From positions 90,458,001 through 90,522,000 of the forward strand of contig NC_092346.1 of the NCBI RefSeq assembly GCF_963676685.1: a stretch of 64,000 bases of DNA, in the 5' to 3' direction. The notes below the pieces were generated by a model. That model did no database searches. It worked only from the letters and a program-made list of their open reading frames with translations, and had not been told where the DNA came from. The DNA comes from Mytilus edulis. Its lineage: Eukaryota. Below, in pieces: positions 19,115 through 46,100 of this stretch; position 1 is the first letter of the stretch, and the number at the start of each line of letters is the position of its first letter. Position numbers and translations under genes: made by a program.

Positions 19115-22100
19115 CTGAAAGTAGACACGAATAAATTACTAATAAACAACTTTAAGTCGTGGTTTGTACATATTTGATATTTATTTGTTTTTCTTCTTTT
19201 CGTCAAATTTGTGCTTTTCTGGGTTTGCTGTTTGGAATCCTTGGTGATTTTTTTTATCCACAAAGCTCTGAAACTTTGGTACTTTATTCGCCATTCTGTT
19301 TCCTGTTGTCGTCAACGAAGTACACAATTTTGATCTTAATCATTCTATCTCTGATGTATTCGGTTACAAATTCTTTGGATTTTTTTTTCTTTATCTGAAT
19401 TGTAAATTTGGAAATCGGGTATCACTGATGAGTCTTTTAAACAAAAAATGCGTATGATAACAAAAATAATTCTTTATTATGCCGAGTTTTATACGGTTAT
19501 TGAACTCGAATAGAACTTCTATTTAAAACACAAATTAGATCTTTAAATGAAATATAATAAAGTGTTCTTTAATCTTTTTTTGATTCTATGATTTAAGATA
19601 AATGCTAGATTAATAAGTCCGGGGATAAAACAAGAAAAAAACCACCCCAAAAATACCCAAGCAATGGTAAAGTTAATATAAACTTAGATCTAAAAACACT
19701 TTCATTATAATAACAATAGTATACAGGGATAATTCAATATACAAACTACAAAATTAAAAACTTTTTTTAGACTTATATTTACGATACCACAGAAAAGGTT
19801 GTTATAGCTGATTATAGCTCTTCTTTAAAACTTTCAGTTAACTTGAAATTTTTTTGTTTAGACCACATCTGTCGAGAAAGATTGTCTTTCAGGTCCCCAA
19901 GCAATGACCAAATTGAATAATTGTATTTCGTGTAATGAATTTGACCTTTAATAAACGAAATGACCAGTTTTGAAAATTATTTCCTTTACATTTAGAAAAA
20001 ATCTAAACTTTATGACTTGCTAAAAGTTCCGGACTTGTTTCAGACAATATTAGTTAATTCGACCCTTTTAAGACAATTATAGGTTTCAAATAAAAAATGT
20101 TAGCAGAAGCAACAGTTTTGGCATAGAGAGAGAATCCGAAATACGTTATTCAAAATCAAATTTAATTTCTCTATACTGTAGGAGGTGGCATAACTCTGAT
20201 AATAATAATGAAAGTTGTACATTTGCCACTTTAATTTAATGTAACTAATATATTTGGTTCACCACATAAGGACATATCGTGATATTGTTTTAACATACAC
20301 AATATAAGGCCAAGTTCCAGTTCGACTGGTAAGTTTGGAAGATAAAGTTACTTTCAAAACATTTAAAGGGACAAAATACAAATGAGCAATACTGTGATAG
20401 CAATGTCATACACAAGCGCTACAGACTTAATAAGCAAGCACTATGAATTTAATTTTAACATTGCAATGAAATTTACATGCTTGAGAATATTCTTATTCCG
20501 TATTTGCAACGGAAAGGGTATGCATTTAAACAATACACACCATGTGTCTCAAATAAGTTGTCAAATCGAGTCATTGTGATAAATGCAAATGTTCAATAAA
20601 TGTTCAATAACTAAAAGAAAATGATTTAAAAAATCCAAAAGCTGTAGCTAGACTTATACATATAATTATGTACTTACCATGAGCGATTACTAATAAGAAA
20701 TTGCAACAGTTATAGTTTTGAACTTAGTATAACGTTATTTCTTAGTTTTAAGGAGGGTACGCGTAGCCATTTTATAATTAGGGAATAACAGTTTACTCAC
20801 ATGCAATTGTTGGAAGAAGTTGTGATTGAGGGGCTCCTGCAAATATATATATATATATAACATATTCAATTTAAATCATATGACCACTTAGTCCAATTAC
20901 GTTTGGTTTTTAGATTTACTAGAATATATACTTTAAAGCATTCTCCCTGAAAAACAAAACATATGTTATTCATGAACCATACATAAAAAAAATCAGTCAC
21001 ACTCTGTAATAGAAAAATATATGACAAAATGTTCCTTTCTTTTCAGTAACAATAACGTCACCCCTGGTCCTCTGTTAACAGGAGACATCCGTTGTTGAAA
21101 AATGTCTTTATGATTAACATACCCTTTTATTTTTCAAAAGAAAGGGTTTGTTATATATATCATCTACAATAGATAATTCAGCTGATTTTTAATTTTTCAT
21201 CTTCATGCCTTATATATATCATGTAATGTGTTACGATGCTAGATAACAACTGACGAGGAAAGGTCACAACCAACCACCGAAACTTGATTTTTTTCGAAAG
21301 CTATTTGTTCCAGTAGTCAAGCGCGCCCGGCATAGTGCAACACAATTCGGTGCCACGATATTTCTCAGTAGCATTAATTCCAATACCGACCAGAGAATAA
21401 CATAAATTTGCTTCCACCATTATCCTTCAACATTTTAGTTCGCTATATAGAGGATGTATTATTATTGAATGAAAACCGTGCAGGATGCAAACTATGCTAT
21501 TTTATTTGTTTCATTTCTAGACTAAAATCTAAAACTTAACTATCGATCAGTGCACGCACATCTGATGGTTCAAATATGTCAGTATTGTCATCAAAGGTTC
21601 AGTCTTATAATTTGATACGGGAGACGCGAGTTTCGTCTACGCACGACTCAGGGACTCACAGATAAAAAAAAGTTAGAAAGCAAAACAAGTTTAAAGTTGA
21701 AAAGCATAGAAGACCGAAAATTTCAAAAATAGATATGCCAAACACGGATTAAACCCTGTAATGAGAATTGTATACAATATATATTGCGAATATAACAAGT
21801 TAGTAAAAAAAAATGACTTTGTGCATTGGTAAACATGAATATGAACTGGAGATGAAACTAAGTGTAACTATATAGCATAATATATGCATAATTCATGTAT
21901 AACAAAATCAATATTCGCAATATACAAATCTTATTAACAGGGTTTATCAATAACATCTTGATAGAAGTTTATCCACATGAAAAATGTCTACACGGATCTT
22001 ATTCACGTGAAAGTTAAAAACATCAAATTTCAATCTGGGATGTGTGCATTTTATTTCATCGAAATTTTCAAATTCTTTATGTTCTAAATGCAACTTTGTT

Positions 22101-25100: not shown

Positions 25101-28100
25101 ACATATAGATTTTCTTGGATCAAAACACTTACAAACCAAACCATAGCATGCATAGACTGAAATTGACAGGATCTTTTTCTCATAAATTATATTATATTAC
25201 ACTATAACTAGAGGTAAAGAAGACTTTGTAGAGTGGTACACGATATCTTCATATCAAGATTAATTGCACACAAATTTGAGGGAGGCTGTGATAAGATGTC
25301 AATGCTACTAAGCACTGACCACTAAGGATAGACACAAATAAGCATTCACACCAATAGACATACACACGAAAACATTAAAAAGTTCTCCTGATATAAAACA
25401 TTATCATTTAGGGTAAAACTTTAAGGACATAAATAGGAAAAATGAAAAACTTGCCCGAGTACTAATTACTAGCTACTGAGATTCACAAATTGTCAGACAT
25501 AAACAAGGAAGTAGGATAAAATAAAACTTACCAGACAGGGTAAAATCCACCAGACATAAACAATAAAGCATGACATGATTTCCCTGGTACACATTGTGTT
25601 ACAGAGTCATGTGGTATTGTTGGCGTGATAAAGTAGGGCTATAATATTTATATAAAAGAAAACATATATATTAGAAAGTTCATAAGAATTCACATGGTTT
25701 TGTCTGAAATTTGTTCAAAATAAATATTGATCTCAATGGCGAATTAACAAGCGAAATCTGTATAAATTGTAGGTTTTCTTTTTGTTTCGATAGAATATAG
25801 ACACCAGTTAATAAAAGAAAAAGTACTATCTTTGTATCAAAATGCATTATTTTTCTTTATATTCAGAACGCATTGTTTACATGAGGCATATTAATACATT
25901 TTATGTCAGAGAAGTCTATGTAGAATAGCCTAGACGTATTTAAATTATTCAAGTTAGCTGACAATAGGTAGAATTTAAATCTAAATAGATAATTTCACCC
26001 AAACACACCTGACTTGTTTCCACTTGATGCTGATAAGAATCTGCAAAAGACAATAGTGTCTTAATTTATATGAAAAAAGAATGTGTCAATGGGACACAGG
26101 TTTCCTCACTTTCAAACATTTAACAAGTCGGTATACAAATTCAAACCTTTTAATTTTCTTTTCTTATTAACTTAATTAAGTCCGTTTTCCGCTAAACTGA
26201 CGATGTTCTCTCACTTAAGCTTAATAATTCAAAGTTTGGTTTGCTTCTTCGACCTTGGGATAAAACATACGACAGTCTGCGTCACATATCGACTTACATC
26301 AAGACATTGACAATGAGGTATAATGTTTGGATTAAAATTTTACGACAAAAGAAATAATTTCAGCTTTTCAGTCCAAACTTTGTCATAACTATGCAATAGG
26401 GCATCAGCACATAAAACGATATTCCAGGGCTTGTATTTCCTATCAAGATTTCCTTGATGAATGGTTGCTGCTTACAAGTAAGCTATTGAACCAATGTTCT
26501 TAAATAGTTGAAATCATTTTTTTATAAATTTTACGGACACATTCACGTGTTGATTGTAGAATAACTGATTCACATATGACATTAGATATGTTCCAATTAT
26601 CGTGACAACATCCTGGCGCCTATTCTGATACTGTGACCTGTCGAATACGACGTGTCACCAGGATGTTCTTTCATAAGTAACGATATGGGTGGCACATATG
26701 GAGCGGACTCAGAATATACGTCCGAAGCAAGTTTTTTTTTTATCATGGCGTAGTAAGTTATTTTCGACTTATAAATGTGAATGTCCCTTTTGAGACTTTG
26801 CATCTTTTTATGATATGTTTTTCGTATGTAGTCATTAGATTCGGGATAAAGTGCTCGAAATCGATCTTAAAAGTTATTTATGGTTGATTTTTAATTTTTT
26901 GCTAAGTAGCCAAAAAACCACAAGAACTTTAAACTAAATAATATAAGGGTAATTTGATCTAAGAACAAGGTTCACATACACGTAAGCCAACTATGGCCTC
27001 AAATTCCAACTATGTTATAAAATATCAAAAGGGCCATACGATGGGAATAATTTTTTTCTATAGCCTTACATTTAGGTAAATTATGTGTATCCATAAGTGA
27101 ACATTCTAGGCTCCAAGTTTGTTACAGTTTAGATAAAATACGATGATGTTGTGTGCATACTTCGGAACTAAAAACGTGAGGAAAGCATTGCCCGTCCGTA
27201 ATCTACGATCCTAAAAATAATGTAACCATAATATGCTAATGATAATATTTGATCGGTAGAGACATAACAATTCTTGAGCATGTTTAACTGTCAGCGTCAC
27301 TCAAGCTAAAACTATTTTAAATCATTAAAAAAAACGTGATTAAGGGTCATTACTGATAATTGATATAACAACTCTTGTTATGAAACATTTGCAGTATTTT
27401 TGGCATGGTTAAAAACATGAACATCGTTGAACGAATTTTACATAACCATTGAAGTAGGACAAATAAAGATGCAAAGGTCATTACATTGCTATATTTACCT
27501 GGAGATTTAATTTCAACCTCAAAACAGAATTCATCGCTAGTTAACCTGAAAACAGTAGAAGAACAGTATTAGTATAAAAATGGTGAATGTATAAAGCTGC
27601 CAACAGAACTTGTGTAGGCTTAGTTCAACTAAGCCTACACAAGTTAACAATATATCATCAGTCATCAAGCTGAATAGGAGCAAATCAATTTAATACTTTC
27701 ATTTGATATTGTTACACAAATTCATCTTCATATCTTTTATGAACCATCTATCGTTCTACATTTGTAAATGCATGTACCAAAGCAGGAATATTAGAGTGTT
27801 GTCCGTTCGTTTGATGTGATTTATCATTTGATTAGGGACTTTCCGTTTTGAATTTTTCCTTGGAGTTCAGTACTTTTGTGATTTTACTCTTTCGTAATCT
27901 AAATAACCCAATGTCTGACAGTTTGTATTAACATACATTATATTTCCTACAGTTTACTGGGAAAATGAAATGAAATTGAAATGTTTATAAGCTATGAACA
28001 GCAAACATGTTAAGGAGGCCATTTTTCATTGGTGTTTTACATTTCATTCTTTAATTTTTTGAAATGACAAAACTATATCAATATGGAAAAGATCGTTGAA

Positions 28101-31100: not shown

Positions 31101-34100
31101 TCAGATCGGATAGAACTGGCTTTATTTTTTTTTTATTAATTTGAATATATTTGTGAAAAGTGTTTGTGATTAAGACATGCATACATTTTTGTAGTAACAA
31201 ATTTACAACATAAGTAAATGGTGTAATGGGCAGATCTTCATTCCCCATTATCACATAATGATCATCGGTTTTATATCAATTTGAATAAAAATAGTGTACT
31301 TACCAACCTGACATGTAAAATAATGTACTACCAACCGGAAAGCTAAAATAATGTACTTACCAAGCTGACAGGTAAGTCCCGAATATCCAGATGAACACTG
31401 GCAGAATCCGTTACTGTCTTTGCCGTTGCAGAAACCTTGGTTCATACAAATCAGTCTGCTGCAGGGTCCTCTAGCTTAAGTGCGCGTAAAAAAAATAACA
31501 TGTTTTTGTTAAATTATCATACATTTTTTTTTTAATTCAGTCAATATATTTGAATAAAAAGTTTGTAATTTTACAATTGGGTAAAACACTAATATGGAAA
31601 ATATTTTTTTTCTATTTATGTATGCTACAGTTTGACAAGTTACCGTGTGAGTAAAAATGTTTTATCTTTTTTAAAATCTATCTTAGACTAGTTAATGTAA
31701 ATGCCAAATTGAAAGATACATTTTAAATTCACGTTAACCTAGGTTATATGTACAAATATAGTATAGAGACATATAGGAATTAATGTATTCGACCTGGGAT
31801 ATATTAATAGATTGGAAAATTGACCTGAAGGCTTTCAATGTCCTACAAATGTTCTTATAAATACGACCAGTAAACCAACCGTGTTTCGTTGATTTAATAT
31901 TAGTTCCATACGATCAATACTATTAGAAAGTACATATAGATATAGGAAGATGTGGTGTGAGACAACTCTCCATCCAAATAACAATTTAAAAAGTAAACCA
32001 TTATAGGTTAAAGTACGGCCTTCAACACGAAAGTTTACTTTAACTCCAAATTCCAATGTCCCTTTTACTTTTGATAACTATTTACACCACTGGGTCGATA
32101 CCACTGCTGGTGGACGTTTCGTCCCCGAGGGTATCACCAAGCCCAGTAGTCAGCACTTCGGTGTTGACATGAATATCAATTATATGGTCATTTTTATAAA
32201 TTTTCTGTTTACAAAACGTTGAAAATTTCGAAAAACTAAGGATTTTCTTACCCCAGGAGTTGATTACCTTCGCCATATTTGGCACAACTTTAAGAATATT
32301 TGGATCCTCAATGCTCTTCAACTTTGTATTTATTTGGCTTTTTAACCTTTTGGATCTGAGCGTCACTGATGAGTCTTATGTAGACGAAACGCGCGTCTGG
32401 TGTATAAAATTATAATCCTGATACTTTTGATAACTATTTGACCAGAAACATTTAGATAAATAGCAGCATAGTAAACACTCTAGAAATAAAGTTTGTTTGA
32501 AATTCAAGCTGCTTTCAAAGGCATGTGTATTAAAATTTTAAAATCGTAATCATTTTGAACACGCGTTTACTTGTAAATAGGTTTTTATGATGCTTATGAA
32601 GACGTAAATAAAGGCAACAGTAGTATACCGATGTTGCAAACTCATAAACATTGATAAACAATAAACATTAAAACATTGATTGATTTTCAAAATACCAAGG
32701 TTGTTAAAAGTAACTCAATAGTGATATGTTGAATTAAATAATATGTTGCTGGTATTTTACAAATTTACTCTTGCAAAAACAAATCCAAGAATCTTGATAT
32801 TAAATGGAAGATAAATACCAGTACTAGTATGCATTAGAAAGAAAAAAACTAAGATACGACTCTATTTCTAGAGAAAAATCAAAACAAGCAAAATGTTTTT
32901 TTTTAGATAATTATAGACCTTTAAAATATTGTCATAAAAAAAAAATTTTGATTTTCATTAGTTGTCATGTATGATCGAAACATATCTTCTTGATCTAAAA
33001 GTATTTTTATCATCTCATGTAGCCATTTTTGAACAACAAGAAGGAAACACATTCCACTATAAAAATATATAATATTTCTATTATTCAAAGGGATGAAGAA
33101 GTTGCCGACTAAAATATATGTACCATGTAATGTTTCTTTCGTTATTGTAATGTTGTAACACCTTTTCTCTCCTTCTCCTCTACAAAACAAAAACAGAATA
33201 TTTTATATAAAATGAATCATTAGGTTAAGTTTTCCGGTCAAAATATCAACTACATATAAATGAACTGCACGGAAGTTATAAATGTAAAGTTCAGACAGAA
33301 GGAACAATTATGATAAACATTAATCAGATCGATAAGTCCATTATAAATTGGGACCTTTTTTGCCCCACTGTTAATTGCTTGCTATTAAAGTATAAAAGTA
33401 AAAATAAGAGTATACTGCAACGAGACTGCAGAACGACTTAAAAAAAACCAAGAAAACTTATACTGTAAGTATACCGTCGTCGAAGGGTAGTGATTAAAAA
33501 AAAGTGTTCATATTAGACACTTTTTGAAGGGCCATATTTTTGATAATTGTCATGGGTGCAACTAATCAAAACGCATGATTATAGAAGTTACCTTCATACA
33601 AAAGACAATATTCAGACACAATAATGTGTCTATATAGCCTTAAATCAGATACAACGAAATATAAGTAAATGTGAAATTTATGTACTGTTATCTGCTTAAT
33701 AAAATGCATTTTTAAAAGTAATTCGCAATAGACAGCTTCATCACATGATGCTTAACAATAGAAAACAATAATATCAGCGTTACAGTTGATACGAGCGGAG
33801 CCTTCGACTTTGTATACTGTTAAAATACACGGATTCTTGCAGACACTGCAAACTTAATGTAGTTATAAAAGAGGGACGAAAGATACCAAAGGGACAGTCA
33901 AACTCATAAATCTAAAACAAACTGACCACGTCATGGCTAAAAATAAAAAAAGACAAATAGAACAATAGTACACATGACACAACATAGAAAACTAAAGAAT
34001 AAACAACACGAACCCCACCAAAAACTAGGGGTGATCTCAGGTGCTCCGGAAGGGTAAGCATATATAAACTGCTGATAAGAAATCATGCATTTCATAGCCT

Positions 34101-37100: not shown

Positions 37101-40100
37101 TCACATTTTACCTTCGATAGATAATTGTTTCATTTAAAAATGTACCACATATCATAATGTCTATATTGCGCTTAAAACTTAACATTAGAAAGGGAGTTAT
37201 CAATTGACAGCCATCGGACCAAGACCTGGGAACAGGTCCTTTAATTAAACGATCAACTGATATTTTCTGATAGTAATGCAACTTTTAAGACAAATCATCG
37301 ACCTACCACAAATTATTCTATTTATACTGTCTTAAGCAGAAAAATTAGACATCTATTAGAAAAGCAACACATATGTCTCGCCGTCTCGCGACTTTCGTCG
37401 AAGATGATATAAAAAAAGATTGTAATCTCATAGTTATTATTATGTGGGTACAATAATTTTATTGCAGATCAAACAGAGATTAAATGCGTATCCACAAAAA
37501 AAGTGTAGCTTCCGTTAAAGATTAAGCCGACATGTGGCCATGTTTCTAATGAGTAGATAACTTACATGAGAAACTGGTTTAGATGGTTCTGAAAGTTAAA
37601 CACATAACGAAATATGATCAATTAAACTTGAAAATGTATTTTCAAAAGTTACTTAAGCTTTACTTCAGTACCCAAATTCCCTTCAATAACAAACATATTT
37701 AAAAAGGCATTTATATGTAACAACTTCATGTACATTTTTGAAAGCCTCTTGTAGCTGCATCAACCTAAGATTTTAATAACATTTTTTATATAAAAAAATC
37801 TATTCCCATAAGCGATATTATTTTACAAAAAAACGAAATGAGTGTCCGGTTACAGAACAATGAGGAAATCCTGAATAATCATAGGTATGTGTTATATATA
37901 TATATATGGAACTTCAACTCACGATGAAGAACTGAATAATACTACATGATGTTTGATACAAAAATTACATAGATGTCCATGACGCAAAGTAATATTACTG
38001 AGTCTAACGAGTGCTTTAAGACATACATTCTCCATTATTAACACCAGTTGTATTTTTCACCAATTAAAGACATGTTTCGAAGTAATTGTGTAATTGCTTA
38101 CTTTAGATTCGGCGTCAATCAGATGTGGATACCATAAAATGCCAAATATATGTTAGACAATACATACTATAAGTATCTTTCTTCTTGCAATATTATCAAA
38201 ATATTTTACTTTTCTTACCTTACATAATCATATCCTAATCTCAAATAAATACAGTTACAATAAGGATTGGTTTTAGAAAAAAAACAAATCTTACGAAAAA
38301 AAAGATAACTTCAGCTTTCCGATGTTGAAATCTCTTATTTTTAAAATGAAAAAAAAACATTCTTGCACATGGAGCTAATTTCTCTCATATGATATTCCAA
38401 AGATTGCCTTTCCTATCATGATTTCCTTCGTAGGGGTTGCTGCTGACAAGGTAGCTATTAAACCCCAAGAGGTGAAATTTGAATCATCACTTGGACATTT
38501 TTACAGACATCATCACAAGATGGTTAAACATTATTTAATGGTTGATAAACAGTCAACACTGGATATGTTTAAATTGTCGTAACAACAATCCTGTCCTTTT
38601 TCCTCGAATGTGTCCTTACGAATTTGACTTCTCTTTTCCTTTTGGTATAGGTAGCCCCTCTTTTATTAGAATCAAAAGCAAATAACTATATTTCATATGA
38701 ATTTAATAGACCTTTTCAAATAATTAAACTTTAATTGAACTTACCAGCTGTAACTTCTATTGAATAACATAATTCATCAGCTGTTTGACTGAAACATAAA
38801 GATGCAGCTGATAATTGATTTGAATGAAACTAAAATTAACAGTAAAATCTATATTAATAATGGTTCTCATTCAACTTCAACATATTTTATTTCTTGTTTA
38901 TAAAGATAACCAACAGCTGAGACCCACCTACGAGCGCGGGATTTTCTCGCTGCATTGAAGACCCATTGATAGCCCTTGGCTGTTATCTGCTCTTTGGTTG
39001 GGTTGTTATCTCTCTTTCATTTTCCTCATTTCAATTCTCAATTTTAAAAAGCAGTACCATATTAAACAATATAAACCAAACATCACCAGGAATTATTACC
39101 GTACTTCTTTGGTCGTCTGAACAACTTATTTGTCTTATAAAGTTGTAAATTTCATTAAAATACCCTAAGCAAATATAAAATGTTGATTGGCAATAGGAAT
39201 TAAATTTCCGAAAAAACAAATTCATCATAGAAACAAATTTAAATGTTTTACGTCAGCCATACTTGTCGTCTTCATCATTGACGCGCAAATCAATAAAGTT
39301 AAAAAAGCAAAATAATGTAAGAAGTTGAAGAATCATAAAGATCAAACATTCCTTAAAGTATTGTCTAATAAAGCTTGAGCAATATTTTTCTGTGGTAGTA
39401 AAGACATATTTCGAAGAAAAGGAAAGCCAAAGACTAAGGTGGTGAAACCCTCGGGGAAGCAACACACTTTAAAAGCGAAAGCAGAATTTCTTTTGTTTTT
39501 TAACATTTAAGATATCATAATCTTTATTTAAATAAAACAGCAGAATGTTAATGAACTTATGGCCTTGTAAGAATGGAAATAGATAATTGTCTATGGCATA
39601 ATTAAAACGGATATTGTATATGTGCCCAACATACATAATTGTTTATCAAGTCCAATCGAATGGTTGATCCTTTTATATATAACGTAATTAAAATCGTGAC
39701 GTTTTTAATGGGGTAGATTGACAGTACATCAACAGACGTTTTTAGTTATTGTTATTTTAGTAATCTGTAAATTAAACCCACATGACAAAACATTATGATA
39801 TTACAGCATTTAGTCCCTATAAAGTTGTCCTATTTCTTTTTGAAAAAAAACAAAAAACGTGCTCCAAGAATAATTCAAAATCGACAGTCCCTTATAAAAT
39901 GGCAAAATGAAAAGCTGTAACACATCAAACAAATGAAAATAAAAACTTACCCAGCAGCATTCACAATTTGTACACAAACTTTATGGTTTCCTATTTTCTT
40001 TGGCAGTATAGAAGTAACAGTATAATATACATATGTGTTATTTTTATCCTGTAGAAAATTCAGGCCAAGAACTTGTACACTGGCATCCACAAAACCTTTC

Positions 40101-43100
40101 TTCATTGAAGGTCTAAATATATTAAAAATAAAATTTGTATCATAAACTTTTAGATTGCATTTCACAAAATATGTATTTCATTCCATATTTTTTTTAATAG
40201 TTTTTAAAGGTATGTATTAGAAATGTAAAATTAAAAATGTGTCATGCATTATCTTTTGTTGAATACCGGTCAACGATGGTTTCCGTCATGCAAGTTTCCC
40301 TGTCTCTGGTCCATAACAAATATCTGACACCACTATCCACCAACTTATCAATGGCCATAAACATTTGTTTTCTAATATTGTTTGCCAAACTTAATTTGAG
40401 TGCTGCTGAGATAAATCAATTCAGACACATTTCAAGGTTAATGCATAATTTACACTCGTTCTAAGTGTTTTACGCTACTGCATTTAAACCATAGATTTTA
40501 GGTGTTTGTATTTGCGTGATCAATATATTAATGTCTATTTAGAGGTATTCGGTTAATATAATGTTAACTGTTAAAGATTTCGAATACCTTTCCTCAACAT
40601 CAGGTATGACCAAGGAAATATCCGGTGTATATGCATGATCTATAAAGCCTATATCAGTAATAACAATTAATTTAGGAAATTAATTTTGTTCTAGGTAATA
40701 TTCAGTACAATATTTTATCTGAACAGAATTGATTAGGATTAAGAACGCTTCATACTAAAATAAATTTTGTTTTCCATATTCACCAATACGAATCCCCAGT
40801 AATCAGACATTAGCATTTCACATGGAACTTCTTGCTAGACTTACTGTACATTAGGATCACTGGTAATGACATACAGTATCTCATAAGAATATCCTTAGAA
40901 GACTTACTTTATAATATGATCTCTAGTCAACACAGATAGTATCTCACATTGATATTCTTTTAAAAGACTTACTTTGCCTTAGGATCACGAGTCAACACAG
41001 ATGGTATTTCAAATAGATCTCCTTAGAAGTCTTACTTTACAAAAGGATCTCCAGTCAATACATATGGTATTTAACATGGATCTTCCAGATGACTTACTTT
41101 GCAGAATCATCTCCAGTCAACACATATGGTATCTGACATGGATCTCCGCAGAAGACCTAATTTACATTAGGATTTCCTGTCAACATATATGGTATCTTAC
41201 AAAGATCTTCTTAGATGGCTTATTTTACAAATAATCTCCTGTCAACACAGGTGATATCTCACATGATCTTCTCAGAAGACTTACTTTATAAAAGAATCTC
41301 CAGTCAACACAGATGATATTTCAGGTGATCTTTTTAGAAGACTTACGTTACATTAGGATCTCTAGTCCAAACAGGTGGTATCTCACATGGATCTCCTTAG
41401 AAGACTTACTTTGCATTAGTATCTCCAATCAACACAGATGGTATTTCACATGGATCTTCAAGATGACATTTAATTGATTTTGGTAATGATGATCCTATGA
41501 ACTTAGCCTACAAATAAATGAAACTTCAAGTGAAACAGTACGGTGAACTATAGTTTGGTCTCTTGTGGACAGATGTATATTGGCAATCATACCACATCTT
41601 CTTTTGTATATTAAACACATTCTCACAAAAAAAAACAGTTTTCATTTGAGTGTACTATAAACCTACTTTTAGTTTTATCTAATGTCATCATGGAATTAAA
41701 ACACAGGAATGAAATTTAACGGACATTTGAATACACACACACACACTATTCAAATTCATTTCAGGTTTATGCGTTTCGCTCGGTTTTGGTTTGTTACCCC
41801 GATTTTGTTTATTGTCCCTGGATTTATGAGTTTTGAACAGCGGTATACTACTGTTGCCTTTATTTATGAACCATTCATTTTTGAAATCATCTAATGTTTA
41901 TTGGAATCTTAACATTCAGAGTGTGGTGCAGAAAACATCAAAACGAATAAACTTTACTTACGCCACTTGTTGCAGGATTTGTTAACCTTGTTGTGGTCTC
42001 TGAAAAATAAACACTATGTTGGAATAATTGTCAGCGGGACCAGTTGACAGCCTTTATAGGGTAAAATCAGTACCAGAACAAAACAAAAACAGGTGTCGAG
42101 TTTTTAAAGTCTTATAACGAGTAAGTTTGTTGGCTGTAACATTAAAAATTCCTTGAAAATAAATTCTAAATCTTGATATTCCAAAAAAAAACCAATATTC
42201 TTTCCCAGATCCAAATGTAATCATTAGTACCAGCATACCAATAAGCTTAATCTTGAATCCCCCCAATAAAGCCCAGTTCTGACGTATACAAAAAAGGTCT
42301 TTTTGTCCCTCTTTTTACAATTAGAAGTATAAAAATCAAGGCACGCATCAATAATTGATTGAGTCTTCTAGAGAACCAAAAATGAAATTGTTAGAATTTA
42401 GTTCCATATTGAAAAGTTTCCATTTATACTTATATGTGTCATAATTTTCTTCTTCTAACGGTACATAAACGATATAATTTCTATTCCTATTCTTGTTCTT
42501 TAAGTTTGATTTCGTCGTTGTGTTTTGGTATATCTCTTGTGAATTCGCAAATCATTCTTAAATCATGCATTTGTTGGGAGTACTAGGCATAACATAAATG
42601 TTTGCTAGAAGAAAAATATATACTTACTCTGTTCACAGTGTGGCCCAATATACCCGAGTCTACAGAAACATGTTTTCTTGATACTATCTGTGTGACAATG
42701 TCCACCATTTTTGCAATATTGTTGATTAGATTTTGTTGCAGGACAACTACCTATATATAAATAAAATATGTACTTAATGCACAACTATCAAAGCCTAAGT
42801 CATGTTATCTGAATTGTGTTGTTATATGGTCTGCAAATGGTCTAAACATATTTTAAGGACATAAAACTAATGTTCAGCAGCTAGATAACATTTAACACTG
42901 TAGCGTGGTTTATAAAACGCCTGCAATGAGACGCTTGATAAAAAAAAATATCACTTTTATGCAATTTGTTATTGGCCTGATATAAATCATTAAGGAAGCA
43001 AATAAGGAACTAGAATACCTAAGCATGTTAACCATTTGTTAAAAGCTATACACATTGAAGATCTTAGAAAGTCTTTGTAACAACTATTCTAGACCCTTCA

Positions 43101-46100
43101 GCAGTGCAAGTGATACACAATTTGATAATTCATATTTCACTTTACCTATTTCACAACTTTTCCCATAGAAACCTAATTTACACATACATGAGTGTGTACC
43201 ATTTGACGAGGCAACACATAAACCATCATTCTGACATGGATTGGATGAACAAGGATCTACAAACCAAAAAACAAGTTAGTTTTATAATCATAAGACTTTT
43301 TTTAAAAATTGTATTGGTTTAATTATATGTTAACACCTGTTTTACATTCGATTTCTAATCAAAATTTATAAAATTCATTTTCTAAACATAAAATAAAAAA
43401 ATAACCAGGTCACAGAAGCCATTATTTTACGTGTCATTAATCTCATATGTACACAAAGTAAACTCACCTTTTCCATCAAGTCGTACATGTTAGCAATGTC
43501 CACTCACCTTTACTTTCAAGTCCCACATGTACACAATGTCAACTCATCTTTACTATCATGACTCATATGTGCACAATTACAACTCATCTTTACTATCAAG
43601 TTCCATATTTTCACAATTACAATTCATATTTGTAATCAAGTCTCATAATTACACAATGACAATTCACCTTTTTTATCAAATCTAATTTGAACACAATGTC
43701 TACTCACCTTTACTTTCTAGTCTCACAAGTACACAATAACAACTCGCCTGAACAAAATGACAACTTACCTTTACTATCAAGTATCATATGTGCACAATGA
43801 CAATTTACCTTTACTATCAGCAACTATATGTAATAGATAACATCTGGTCTCTCCGTCTTGGCTGAAAATAAGAAATTTCAAAAATTTTATAAGTAGGAAT
43901 TGTGTATTTTTTTTATTTTTTTTTAACGATAACAAATAATTTATTCAATCGTTTCCTGTTATATAAATACCTAAGTAGCCCAGGTTGCATAATTAGGGGC
44001 CCCTGTTTTTTTAACACCCTCATTTTACCAGGGAAAATATCAAATGAGTTTATACAATAGTTTTACATACATAATTATATTTAAATAACCATTACAATTG
44101 ATTTTCCCACCTGATAGGATCACTGTATAATATCACTATCGTATATCCGGTTCACTGAACAAAACATGTGTTAATCTAAACTGGAATAACTTTAAAATTA
44201 GATTGCGAAAATAAGTTATTGTTTGACTTGAAGAATTTTGAGGTGATTGAACAGAATTTGAAAGTATTCTTTACTATATATATATATATATGGATTATAA
44301 AAAAGGATAAAGCACATGTGGTGAGTACAAATGTATTACGAAGGATAATATATGTGGTAATTTACTTTTGTAACTTATGTGCACAGACATAGATTCAAAT
44401 AATAATTACAATAACAGATATTGTTTTTTCTTTCTGTTATAATAACATAGTGTTCACTACTTTATACACAATATACAATAAGATAAGTATATATGGAATG
44501 GAACACACCTTTCGTTTAGAGCAGTAGAACTAAGTACATCTTCCTAAATTTTTTCAATAAAGAGTTTAATTTTCGTTTTGCATATATACTTTATATCCGA
44601 GCGTAGCAGAAGAAATTTTAATTCGTTTTTCCTGGCATTTTTAGCATAACCTGTATAGACTGCACATTCAGTTTAATTTTATCGAATTTGCATTTATTAC
44701 GTATTTTCCAAATAGCCCATTTGAAATAAAGTATTATTGCATTAACAATGAAATTACTCGAATTCTCTGTACAAATTCCTAATAAAATATCTTTTTCAAC
44801 GAGAACCTCGTCGTTTATAAGGTTACAAAGTTGTAAATTTCTAACAACCGTTTCTATCAATGGTTTAACATTGTTACATTGATAAAATAAATGCTCAAGA
44901 GTTTCAATATTATTAATTTCATCACATAAGTGACATTTTCTATTTGACATGCGCCTTATTTTCAGTCTGTTTTCTGTATATAAAATCCTGTGTATACATT
45001 TCCATTGAAATTCCTTAACTTTTCTAATAATATTCATTTTACTTAGATTTAGCCAAATTTTTTCCCATTTTATATATTCGCTATACAAATTTTCCCATTT
45101 TGTTTGACACTTAGGGGTCTCAATTATGTTAATGTTTAATTGAACATATTTTAATGTCAAATCCTTTATTTTAATGATTTTATTGTCTGAATTTAAAAAT
45201 TCAAGGTTTTCAGAAATTTTTATTTTGTTGCTTTTTAAAGCAGGTTGATCATCGTTATTTTTTTAAAATCTGCATGAATGTTTGTGGTTTAGAACTTTTA
45301 ATTCGTGAATATTTCGAAATACAATTACGTTTATCTATTAATTGTCTATATATTTCATTGCACGATTTAAAATCTTTGGTATTATCGTCCCATATATCAC
45401 CAAGAGTTTTGATCTGACTTCTTGAGAAGGAAGAATAAAATAAAGATTTGCCCTGAAATAAAATATTGGAGTTTCCAAATAATCGCTGTTTCTTTACTTC
45501 CATTACGTTAAATATACTCTGTGTGATCTTTGTCAGTTTTGACCACGATTGTAAAGCGGTTCCGTAATAATGTGGTATGTTTTTTATTTCAAGACCTGAA
45601 AGGTCAGAACATGTACACAGAAATAGTTCATTCTCAAATTTCTTATCACAATTTTTTAACCAAAATTTACCTATTGCATTCCAACTAGATAATGGCTTAT
45701 GCTATATCGAATATAAAGATTTGATATATTTACTTTCTATCCAACTATCTAAATTTACCATTCCCATGCCCCCCTTTTTAACATCTAAACAACAAACCTT
45801 CCGGTCTACTTGATTCACTTTCCCATCCCAAATAAAATTCCATATTATCTTAATCAATTCTTTTTTGTATTTTTCGGGTATACCTCTTATTTCTTACTCA
45901 TACCAACACACTGATATAATTAAATTTTTTTAACAATAAGGAACTGTGTATTTTAATTCTATTTCAGTTCATCTTAACTAAATCAAGCTAGAAATTTTAA
46001 CCTGTTTAACTCTTCCTTGGGTTATATCACTTATATCTCACCTGGCTCAATTTCATAATAAAATATATGAGTGGGTCACTTCTAACCAATTGATAATGTT

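What the first reader, a model, noticed from the sequence alone, without database searches (positions are those of the whole stretch)
40795..41460. 63-bp minisatellite built from coding sequence of exon 10, with 7 spare GTAAG donors
Seen: the unit is the last ~50 coding nt (EDPCEIPSVLIGDTNAK) plus ~14 intron nt. The modal period is 63 nt (21 codons), and 7 of 9 downstream copies keep GTAAG. Because the donor is phase 2 (AA|G TAA), using any downstream donor exposes an immediate TAA, giving a protein without the later modules and both ShKT domains. A single change in that TAA/GT would instead extend the exon in frame by a 21-aa Cys-containing repeat, so this is raw material for a new protein repeat (inference).
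Basis: partly seen in the sequence, partly recalled or inferred. Interest (0 to 1): 0.7.

Follow-up and report, generated by a model that had tools for sequence, protein, structure and literature searches.

The report
Old splice-donor minisatellite in mussel intron
In a mussel gene, the last 49 coding bases of one exon and its splice signal are repeated nine times into the next intron, but the spliced RNA assemblies examined use only the first signal, so this is likely a harmless, old example of a repeat type already known from lancelet and human genes.

Summary
The array is real: period 63, 10.2 copies, 75% matches; 7 of 9 downstream copies keep GTAAG. Spliced contigs from three studies join the first donor (41410) to 40112. 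None shows a spare donor, but contigs drop rare forms. The exon is not exon 10; about 3.2 kb of mRNA lies upstream. An inverted paralogue 240 kb away (dS 0.47) carries the same array and shares a dead-donor copy, so the array likely predates the duplication. No other copy was found in the genome. Three more donor-spanning arrays sit in this gene pair. GTAAG is slightly better kept than other columns (pooled p 0.03-0.06; GT alone p 0.31): inconclusive. A blind 1.4-Mb sample showed no excess of donor-bearing arrays. This is a new member of a known kind (lancelet 'mirage', human F7 intron-7 VNTR), and the scan has noted it before in other mussel genes. Side result: a public gene model starts inside the array at a spare donor and splits the gene.

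The parts
41410..41507 (-). Authentic 98-nt coding exon (phase 0 to 2), source of the repeat unit; first exon of a three-exon module that recurs in the gene
   Evidence: Spliced contigs in X2, X5, X6; open frame in the model; conserved in the paralogue
41404..41409 (-). Authentic donor AAA|GTAAGT, the only donor seen in use; its GTAA makes the first in-frame TAA if read through
   Evidence: Joint 40112-41410 in 3 of 3 RNA-type runs; translation
40815..41467 (-). 63-bp minisatellite: the authentic unit, nine full copies (61-65 nt) and a partial tenth
   Evidence: TRF; unit alignment
41347..41409 (-). First step of the array (63 nt); two in-frame stops; ends at spare donor AAC|GTAAGT (41346)
40839..41346 (-). 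Seven spare GTAAG donors (41346, 41284, 41097, 41035, 40972, 40907, 40844); four are identical to the authentic 9-mer; no use seen
   Evidence: matrix from 71 donors of the gene pair; no joint, no cover
41155..41223 (-). Two dead donor copies (ATAAGCC at 41223, TTAGGT at 41160); the first is shared with copy 2 of the paralogue's array
41461..41467 (-). GTCATCT inside the exon, 6 of 7 like GTCTTCT just behind the donor (41399-41405), 62 nt away: possible microhomology at the first duplication (inference)
   Evidence: printed contexts; TRF's 125-bp call reaches 41467
39951..40112 (-). Next exon (162 nt, phase 2 to 2) whose acceptor is joined to 41410

Best explanation
This is an intronic minisatellite whose unit is the last 49 bases of a coding exon plus the first 14 bases of the next intron, and it is likely a neutral passenger, because the spliced contigs seen end the exon at the first donor and leave the whole array in the intron. 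Shown: the unit, nine copies, first-donor splicing in three studies, stops in every copy, and the same array behind the same exon of an inverted paralogue. Inferred: (a) origin by slippage or unequal exchange across the exon-intron boundary, perhaps seeded by a 7-base near-match (GTCATCT in the exon, GTCTTCT behind the donor); (b) origin before the gene duplication, then decay here and renewed expansion in the paralogue; (c) tolerance because the most upstream donor wins, as shown by experiment for human F7; (d) any rare spare-donor transcript would carry a premature stop and likely be degraded.
For: Joint 41410-40112 in X2, X5 and X6, from three studies, with no other joint and no cover on the array. 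A 5241-nt contig in X1 leaves exactly 136 nt (38+98) for the mini-exon and this exon (inferred from record positions, the piece itself was not listed). Copies are 72% alike on average, with indels, stops and no significant codon-position bias (32/26/18 mismatches, chi2 p 0.15). The paralogue has 6 copies; its copy 2 and window copy 3 share ATAAGCC; W2, W3, P1, P2 form the only starred clade (96/98); holding the window units together is rejected at AU p 0.04. The majority of the window's copies reads DPCEIPSVLTGDPNVK, the same as P0002, while today's exon reads DPCEIPSVLIGDTNAK: the array keeps an older state of the exon. Sister exons without arrays have a similar C-x4-C-x-(I/F)-P pattern, judged by eye, so the direction is exon to repeat. 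Three own-genome searches found only this locus and the paralogue. Precedents: PMC1557585, PMC3087553, PMC3902484.
Against: GTAAG is among the best kept stretches of this array: 3 mismatches against 9.1 expected, and only 2 of 51 five-column windows are as well kept. Pooled over four arrays it is 17 against 26.9 (p 0.028 by cells, 0.059 by events). RNA evidence is contigs at depth 5-14, which drop rare forms; the three raw-read runs laid had next to no depth on the neighbouring exons, so low or tissue-specific use of spare donors was not tested. In IFI6 (6-16) and CBS, nearby pseudo-sites are used (as told in the Introduction of PMC1557585). AU p 0.04 rests on 63 columns; gene conversion between paralogues could also give the shared copy. 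The public model P0001 does use the spare donor at 41097, and its evidence is unknown to me.
Confidence: 0.84

Rival explanations
1. The spare donors are weakly kept by selection, as backup sites or as U1 snRNP landing sites that help define the exon or protect the intron from early cleavage.
For: 7 of 9 copies keep GTAAG in an array that likely predates a duplication with dS 0.47; 3 mismatches against 9.1 expected here, pooled p 0.03-0.06.
Against: GT itself is not better kept (8 mismatches against 10.2, p 0.31). The paralogue's array shows no excess (42 of 59 windows as well kept; 16 of 52), nor does the 40-bp array (8 against 8.2). Copies are not independent, expected rates are inflated by columns out of register, and this array was picked because it kept GTAAG. 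As a backup it would be useless for the protein: every spare donor gives a stop.
Confidence: 0.08
2. Spare donors are used in some tissue or condition to route the mRNA to nonsense-mediated decay or to give a truncated protein, as a regulatory switch.
For: Four spare donors are identical to the authentic 9-mer; all give a stop at codon 34; nearby pseudo-sites are used in human 6-16 and CBS (PMC1557585 Introduction).
Against: No such joint in 3 of 3 RNA-type runs; unbroken contigs across the junction; F7 experiments show that only the most upstream site is used.
Confidence: 0.05
3. One reading: the array is one mutation away from a new in-frame 21-aa Cys repeat in the protein.
For: Modal period 63 = 21 codons; copy 1 keeps the frame. 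A model of exon or intron gain from mirages is proposed in PMC3087553.
Against: At least two substitutions are needed for one extra unit; copy 2 shifts frame; 9 of 9 copies hold a stop. No exonised copy in the paralogue or in P0002, though only 2 proteins were found in that search.
Confidence: 0.02
4. A dispersed satellite landed here and the exon end was recruited from it.
For: None found.
Against: Only this locus and the paralogue match in the genome (the tool warns that a blank does not prove rarity); sister exons carry a similar Cys pattern without arrays.
Confidence: 0.01

Closest known systems
Amphioxus 'mirage' minisatellites (Adh3, globins BflGb6 and BflGb9, troponin C, PGBD5). PMC3087553: passages of the abstract, section 16 and supplement legends seen; PMC3902484: one passage of section 17 seen
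   Same: Tandem copies of a unit spanning an exon-intron boundary; many but not all copies keep the splice signal; normal splicing is undisturbed; units 81-100% alike with turnover inside the array; several cases per genome.
   Different: A mollusc, not a cephalochordate. Copies are more decayed (72% alike). The array can be dated against a gene duplication. Length polymorphism and somatic instability, described for mirages, were not tested here.
Human F7 intron 7 37-bp VNTR (PMC1557585: abstract, Introduction, first Results section and Discussion read). The 6-16, CBS, LAMIN B2 and PDGF cases are known to me only from its Introduction
   Same: The first unit spans the exon-intron boundary, the donor is reiterated downstream, and only the most upstream donor is seen in use.
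   Different: The F7 unit has 4 exon bases and identical copies; here it has 49 exon bases and divergent copies, two with dead donors. In F7 the pseudo-sites were shown to work when the first is mutated; that was not tested here.

Membership tests
Mirage / splice-donor minisatellite | Head-to-tail array of minisatellite-sized units | tested here: met
   Period 63, 10.2 copies, score 580
Mirage / splice-donor minisatellite | The first unit spans a real exon-intron boundary | tested here: met
   Joint 41410-40112 in spliced contigs of three studies
Mirage / splice-donor minisatellite | Splice signal reiterated in many copies | tested here: met
   7 of 9 copies keep GTAAG
Mirage / splice-donor minisatellite | Normal splicing at the authentic site prevails | tested here: met
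   3 of 3 RNA-type runs show only the first donor; contigs cannot exclude rare use
Mirage / splice-donor minisatellite | Locus-specific, not a dispersed satellite | tested here: met
   Only this locus and its paralogue in three own-genome searches
Mirage / splice-donor minisatellite | Copy number varies between alleles or individuals | not tested
F7-type pseudo-donor array | The next pseudo-site takes over when the first donor is mutated | not testable with these tools
   Needs a minigene test
Coding VNTR / exonised repeat | Copies are in the mature mRNA and stay open in frame | tested here: not met
   No RNA cover on the array; 9 of 9 copies have in-register stops, 4 of 9 are not multiples of three
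ShKT-domain protein (host gene) | Pfam ShK match in the C-terminal exons | tested here: inconclusive
   No ShK hit on single exons or P0001; the six-Cys pattern fits only by recall

The most novel reading that the evidence does not exclude
Some mussel genes are hot spots for duplication across 5' splice sites (4 of 37 exon positions in this gene pair, against at most 1 of 37 acceptors), and the copied GTAAG motifs are kept by weak selection over long times as U1-binding sites, although they are not used to splice.
Probability: 0.1. Interest if true: 0.55.

Novelty: new member of a known kind. Interest (0 to 1): 0.15.

Why it matters
As read here it matters little: one more mirage. It adds three small things. 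The array can be dated against a gene duplication and preserves an older state of the exon's sequence. It supports first-donor-wins splicing in a mollusc. And it shows a practical hazard: a public gene model starts inside the array, uses a spare donor and splits a long gene that RNA contigs show as continuous. If donor motifs in such arrays proved to be under selection, they would offer natural series for testing how U1 sites act without splicing.

Tried and rejected
Raw RNA reads X20, X23 and X13: depth was 0 on the array bins and near 0 on the flanking exon bins, and the joint table was filled by dispersed repeats (62 rows not shown), so they say nothing for or against spare-donor use. DNA run X11: one 151-nt contig at depth 2.2 covers 41357-41504 with 20 differences, which hints that exon plus first copy exist in another organism or paralogue; too thin to count. 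Donor-retention test: flawed (units were centred on the donor, few matched columns, the 40-bp array was mis-cut); its p values were discarded. One search's pooled test (p 0.035-0.04 for +1..+5, 0.12-0.14 for GT) left out the 40-bp array by a tiling failure; one search replaces it, and there the 40-bp set holds one spurious copy (43434) and misses one (near 43627). Blind sample of 1.4 Mb, seven blocks of 200 kb: 364 arrays, 238 dropped as dispersed, 126 single-locus; strong-donor consensus in 4 (3.4 expected), weaker threshold 10 (14.9 expected); acceptors 1 (1.9) and 9 (10.2). No excess; 3 of 10 had an exon-like stretch upstream against 57 of 840 background sites (p 0.026). No annotation was available, so power is low; a genome-wide excess is neither shown nor excluded. 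Donor against acceptor within the gene pair: 4 of 37 against 1 of 37, Fisher p 0.36. A 46-nt candidate exon at 20901-20946 broke the frame and was dropped from the model. Literature searches for a mollusc report (0 papers; none on molluscs in the listings) cover only the open library, so absence from print is not shown. Papers listed but not opened were seen as search listings only. No supplements were read.

Full report
What is there. The minus strand carries a long multi-exon gene. At 40818-41459 lies a tandem array of period 63 with 10.2 copies and 75% matches. Its first unit is the last 49 bases of exon 41410-41507 plus 14 intron bases; nine full copies and a partial tenth follow. Spacings are 63,62,61,63,63,62,63,65,63. 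Seven of nine copies keep GTAAG, and four match the authentic AAA|GTAAGT exactly; two are dead.

The host gene. A 24-exon model from 49019 to 18959 gives one open frame of EGF domains (Pfam) and repeated three-exon modules, ending in two six-Cys exons that look ShKT-like by recall but got no Pfam ShK match. The gene runs far beyond the window: 18 exons were mapped upstream of the target, in an incomplete list reaching about 95 kb past the window's end, and a 5241-nt contig holds 3178 nt before it. 'Exon 10' counts only the window. A source labels the identical protein P0001 as Mytilus edulis.

Splicing. Three RNA-type runs from three studies (X2, X5, X6; X5 is on record as RNA, the other two are guesses but their contigs are spliced) all join 41410 to 40112, with no other joint and no cover on the array. 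X1 agrees by arithmetic. These are contigs at depth 5-14, so rare forms would be lost. The three raw-read runs laid hardly cover the gene.

Coding potential. Reading past the first donor gives K*VF*GDPCEIPPVWTRDPNV: two stops in the first copy. Copy 2 is 62 nt. All nine copies hold an in-register stop, eight hold two or more. Every spare donor thus gives a stop at codon 34 of the exon with 18 exons still to come, which by general knowledge is a likely target of nonsense-mediated decay. Mismatches are not significantly biased by codon position (p 0.15).

Age and origin. The only other match in the genome is an inverted paralogue about 240 kb away; 34 of 37 exons map to it with AG/GT intact, with dS 0.47 and dN 0.12 over 21 exons. 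It has six copies behind the same exon. Its copy 2 and window copy 3 share the dead donor ATAAGCC; W2, W3, P1 and P2 form the one starred clade, and separate origins are marginally rejected (AU p 0.04). The last three paralogue copies are 90-95% alike, a later expansion. The majority of the window's copies encodes DPCEIPSVLTGDPNVK, as does P0002, while the exon has moved on at three residues. A 6-of-7 near-match between the exon interior and the bases behind the donor, 62 nt apart, may have seeded the first duplication (inference; the spacing is one base short of the period).

Is the donor motif selected? In this array GTAAG has 3 mismatches against 9.1 expected; pooled over four arrays 17 against 26.9 (p 0.028 by cells, 0.059 by events). 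GT alone shows nothing (p 0.31), and neither the paralogue's array nor the 40-bp array shows an excess. Copies are not independent and this array was noticed for its GTAAG. I call this inconclusive.

How common? In the gene pair, 5 of 71 donors (window exons ending at 43809, 41410 and 31361; paralogue counterparts of 41410 and 25532; four exon positions) and at most 1 of 71 acceptors have a spanning copy within 500 nt, against about 3% of 600 random intron sites (p 0.06 by sites, 0.02 by positions, Fisher donor against acceptor 0.36). A blind 1.4-Mb sample showed no excess of donor-bearing arrays among 126 single-locus arrays, with three unverified candidates.

What is known. Tandem copies of exon-intron boundaries are the lancelet 'mirages', which do not disturb splicing (PMC3087553, passages; PMC3902484, one passage). 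In human F7 intron 7 the reiterated donors work when the first is mutated but are silent otherwise (PMC1557585; abstract, Introduction, first Results section, Discussion). The name 'mirage' and PMC3087553 came as leads from earlier notes of this scan, which record the same pattern in several other mussel genes; those notes are leads, not support. Searches for a mollusc paper found none, within an open library only.

Verdict. A real feature and a new member of a known kind, most likely neutral (0.84). Interest 0.15. The most novel reading left open, hot-spot genes with weakly selected U1 sites, has about 0.1 probability.

Noticed in passing
window 41110-41098 and about 40588-40647: The public model P0001 starts at an ATG inside copy 5 of the array (MILQS), uses the spare donor at 41097 and an intronic stretch as exon, and so cuts off the 5' part of the gene. 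Spliced contigs of three studies instead join 41410 to 40112: likely an annotation error caused by the array.
   Followed up: partly
window 43447-43831: 40-bp donor-spanning array behind exon 43809-43861; the first copy (AAG|GTAAGT) is closer to consensus than the authentic donor (AAG|GTAAAT). A decayed remnant lies in the paralogue, cut off from its exon by other DNA. Which donor is used was not seen.
   Followed up: partly
window 31288-31375: 29-bp donor-spanning array (about 3 units) behind the EGF exon 31361-31474; the X1 contig ends the exon at the first donor.
   Followed up: partly
L006 8823-9453 (G000:C3 about 90748823-90749453); window 25349-25402: 70-bp, 9-copy donor-spanning array in the paralogue behind the counterpart of exon 25532-25638; the window gene keeps only decayed traces.
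   Followed up: partly
G000:C3 about 90476000-90755000: Two large paralogous genes head to head (about 140 kb and 90 kb), 79% alike in protein over 21 exons. The three last exons of the window gene (the two six-Cys exons and a linker) did not map to the paralogue within the stretch held.
   Followed up: partly
L152 9672-9930; L131 7590-7799; L132 7781 to L133 4857: Three unverified donor-bearing arrays with an exon-like stretch upstream in the blind sample (63 x 4, 60 x 3.5, 84 x 84 copies). The last two have periods divisible by three and may be coding repeats.
   Followed up: no
window 44618-45893: Broken open frames on the minus strand that look like the end of a LINE-type retrotransposon, by recalled resemblance only; a similar insertion follows the paralogue's array.
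   Followed up: no
G000:C3 about 90586500-90601900: Near-perfect (99%) inverted repeat of about 4.4 kb inside a large intron of the window gene.
   Followed up: no
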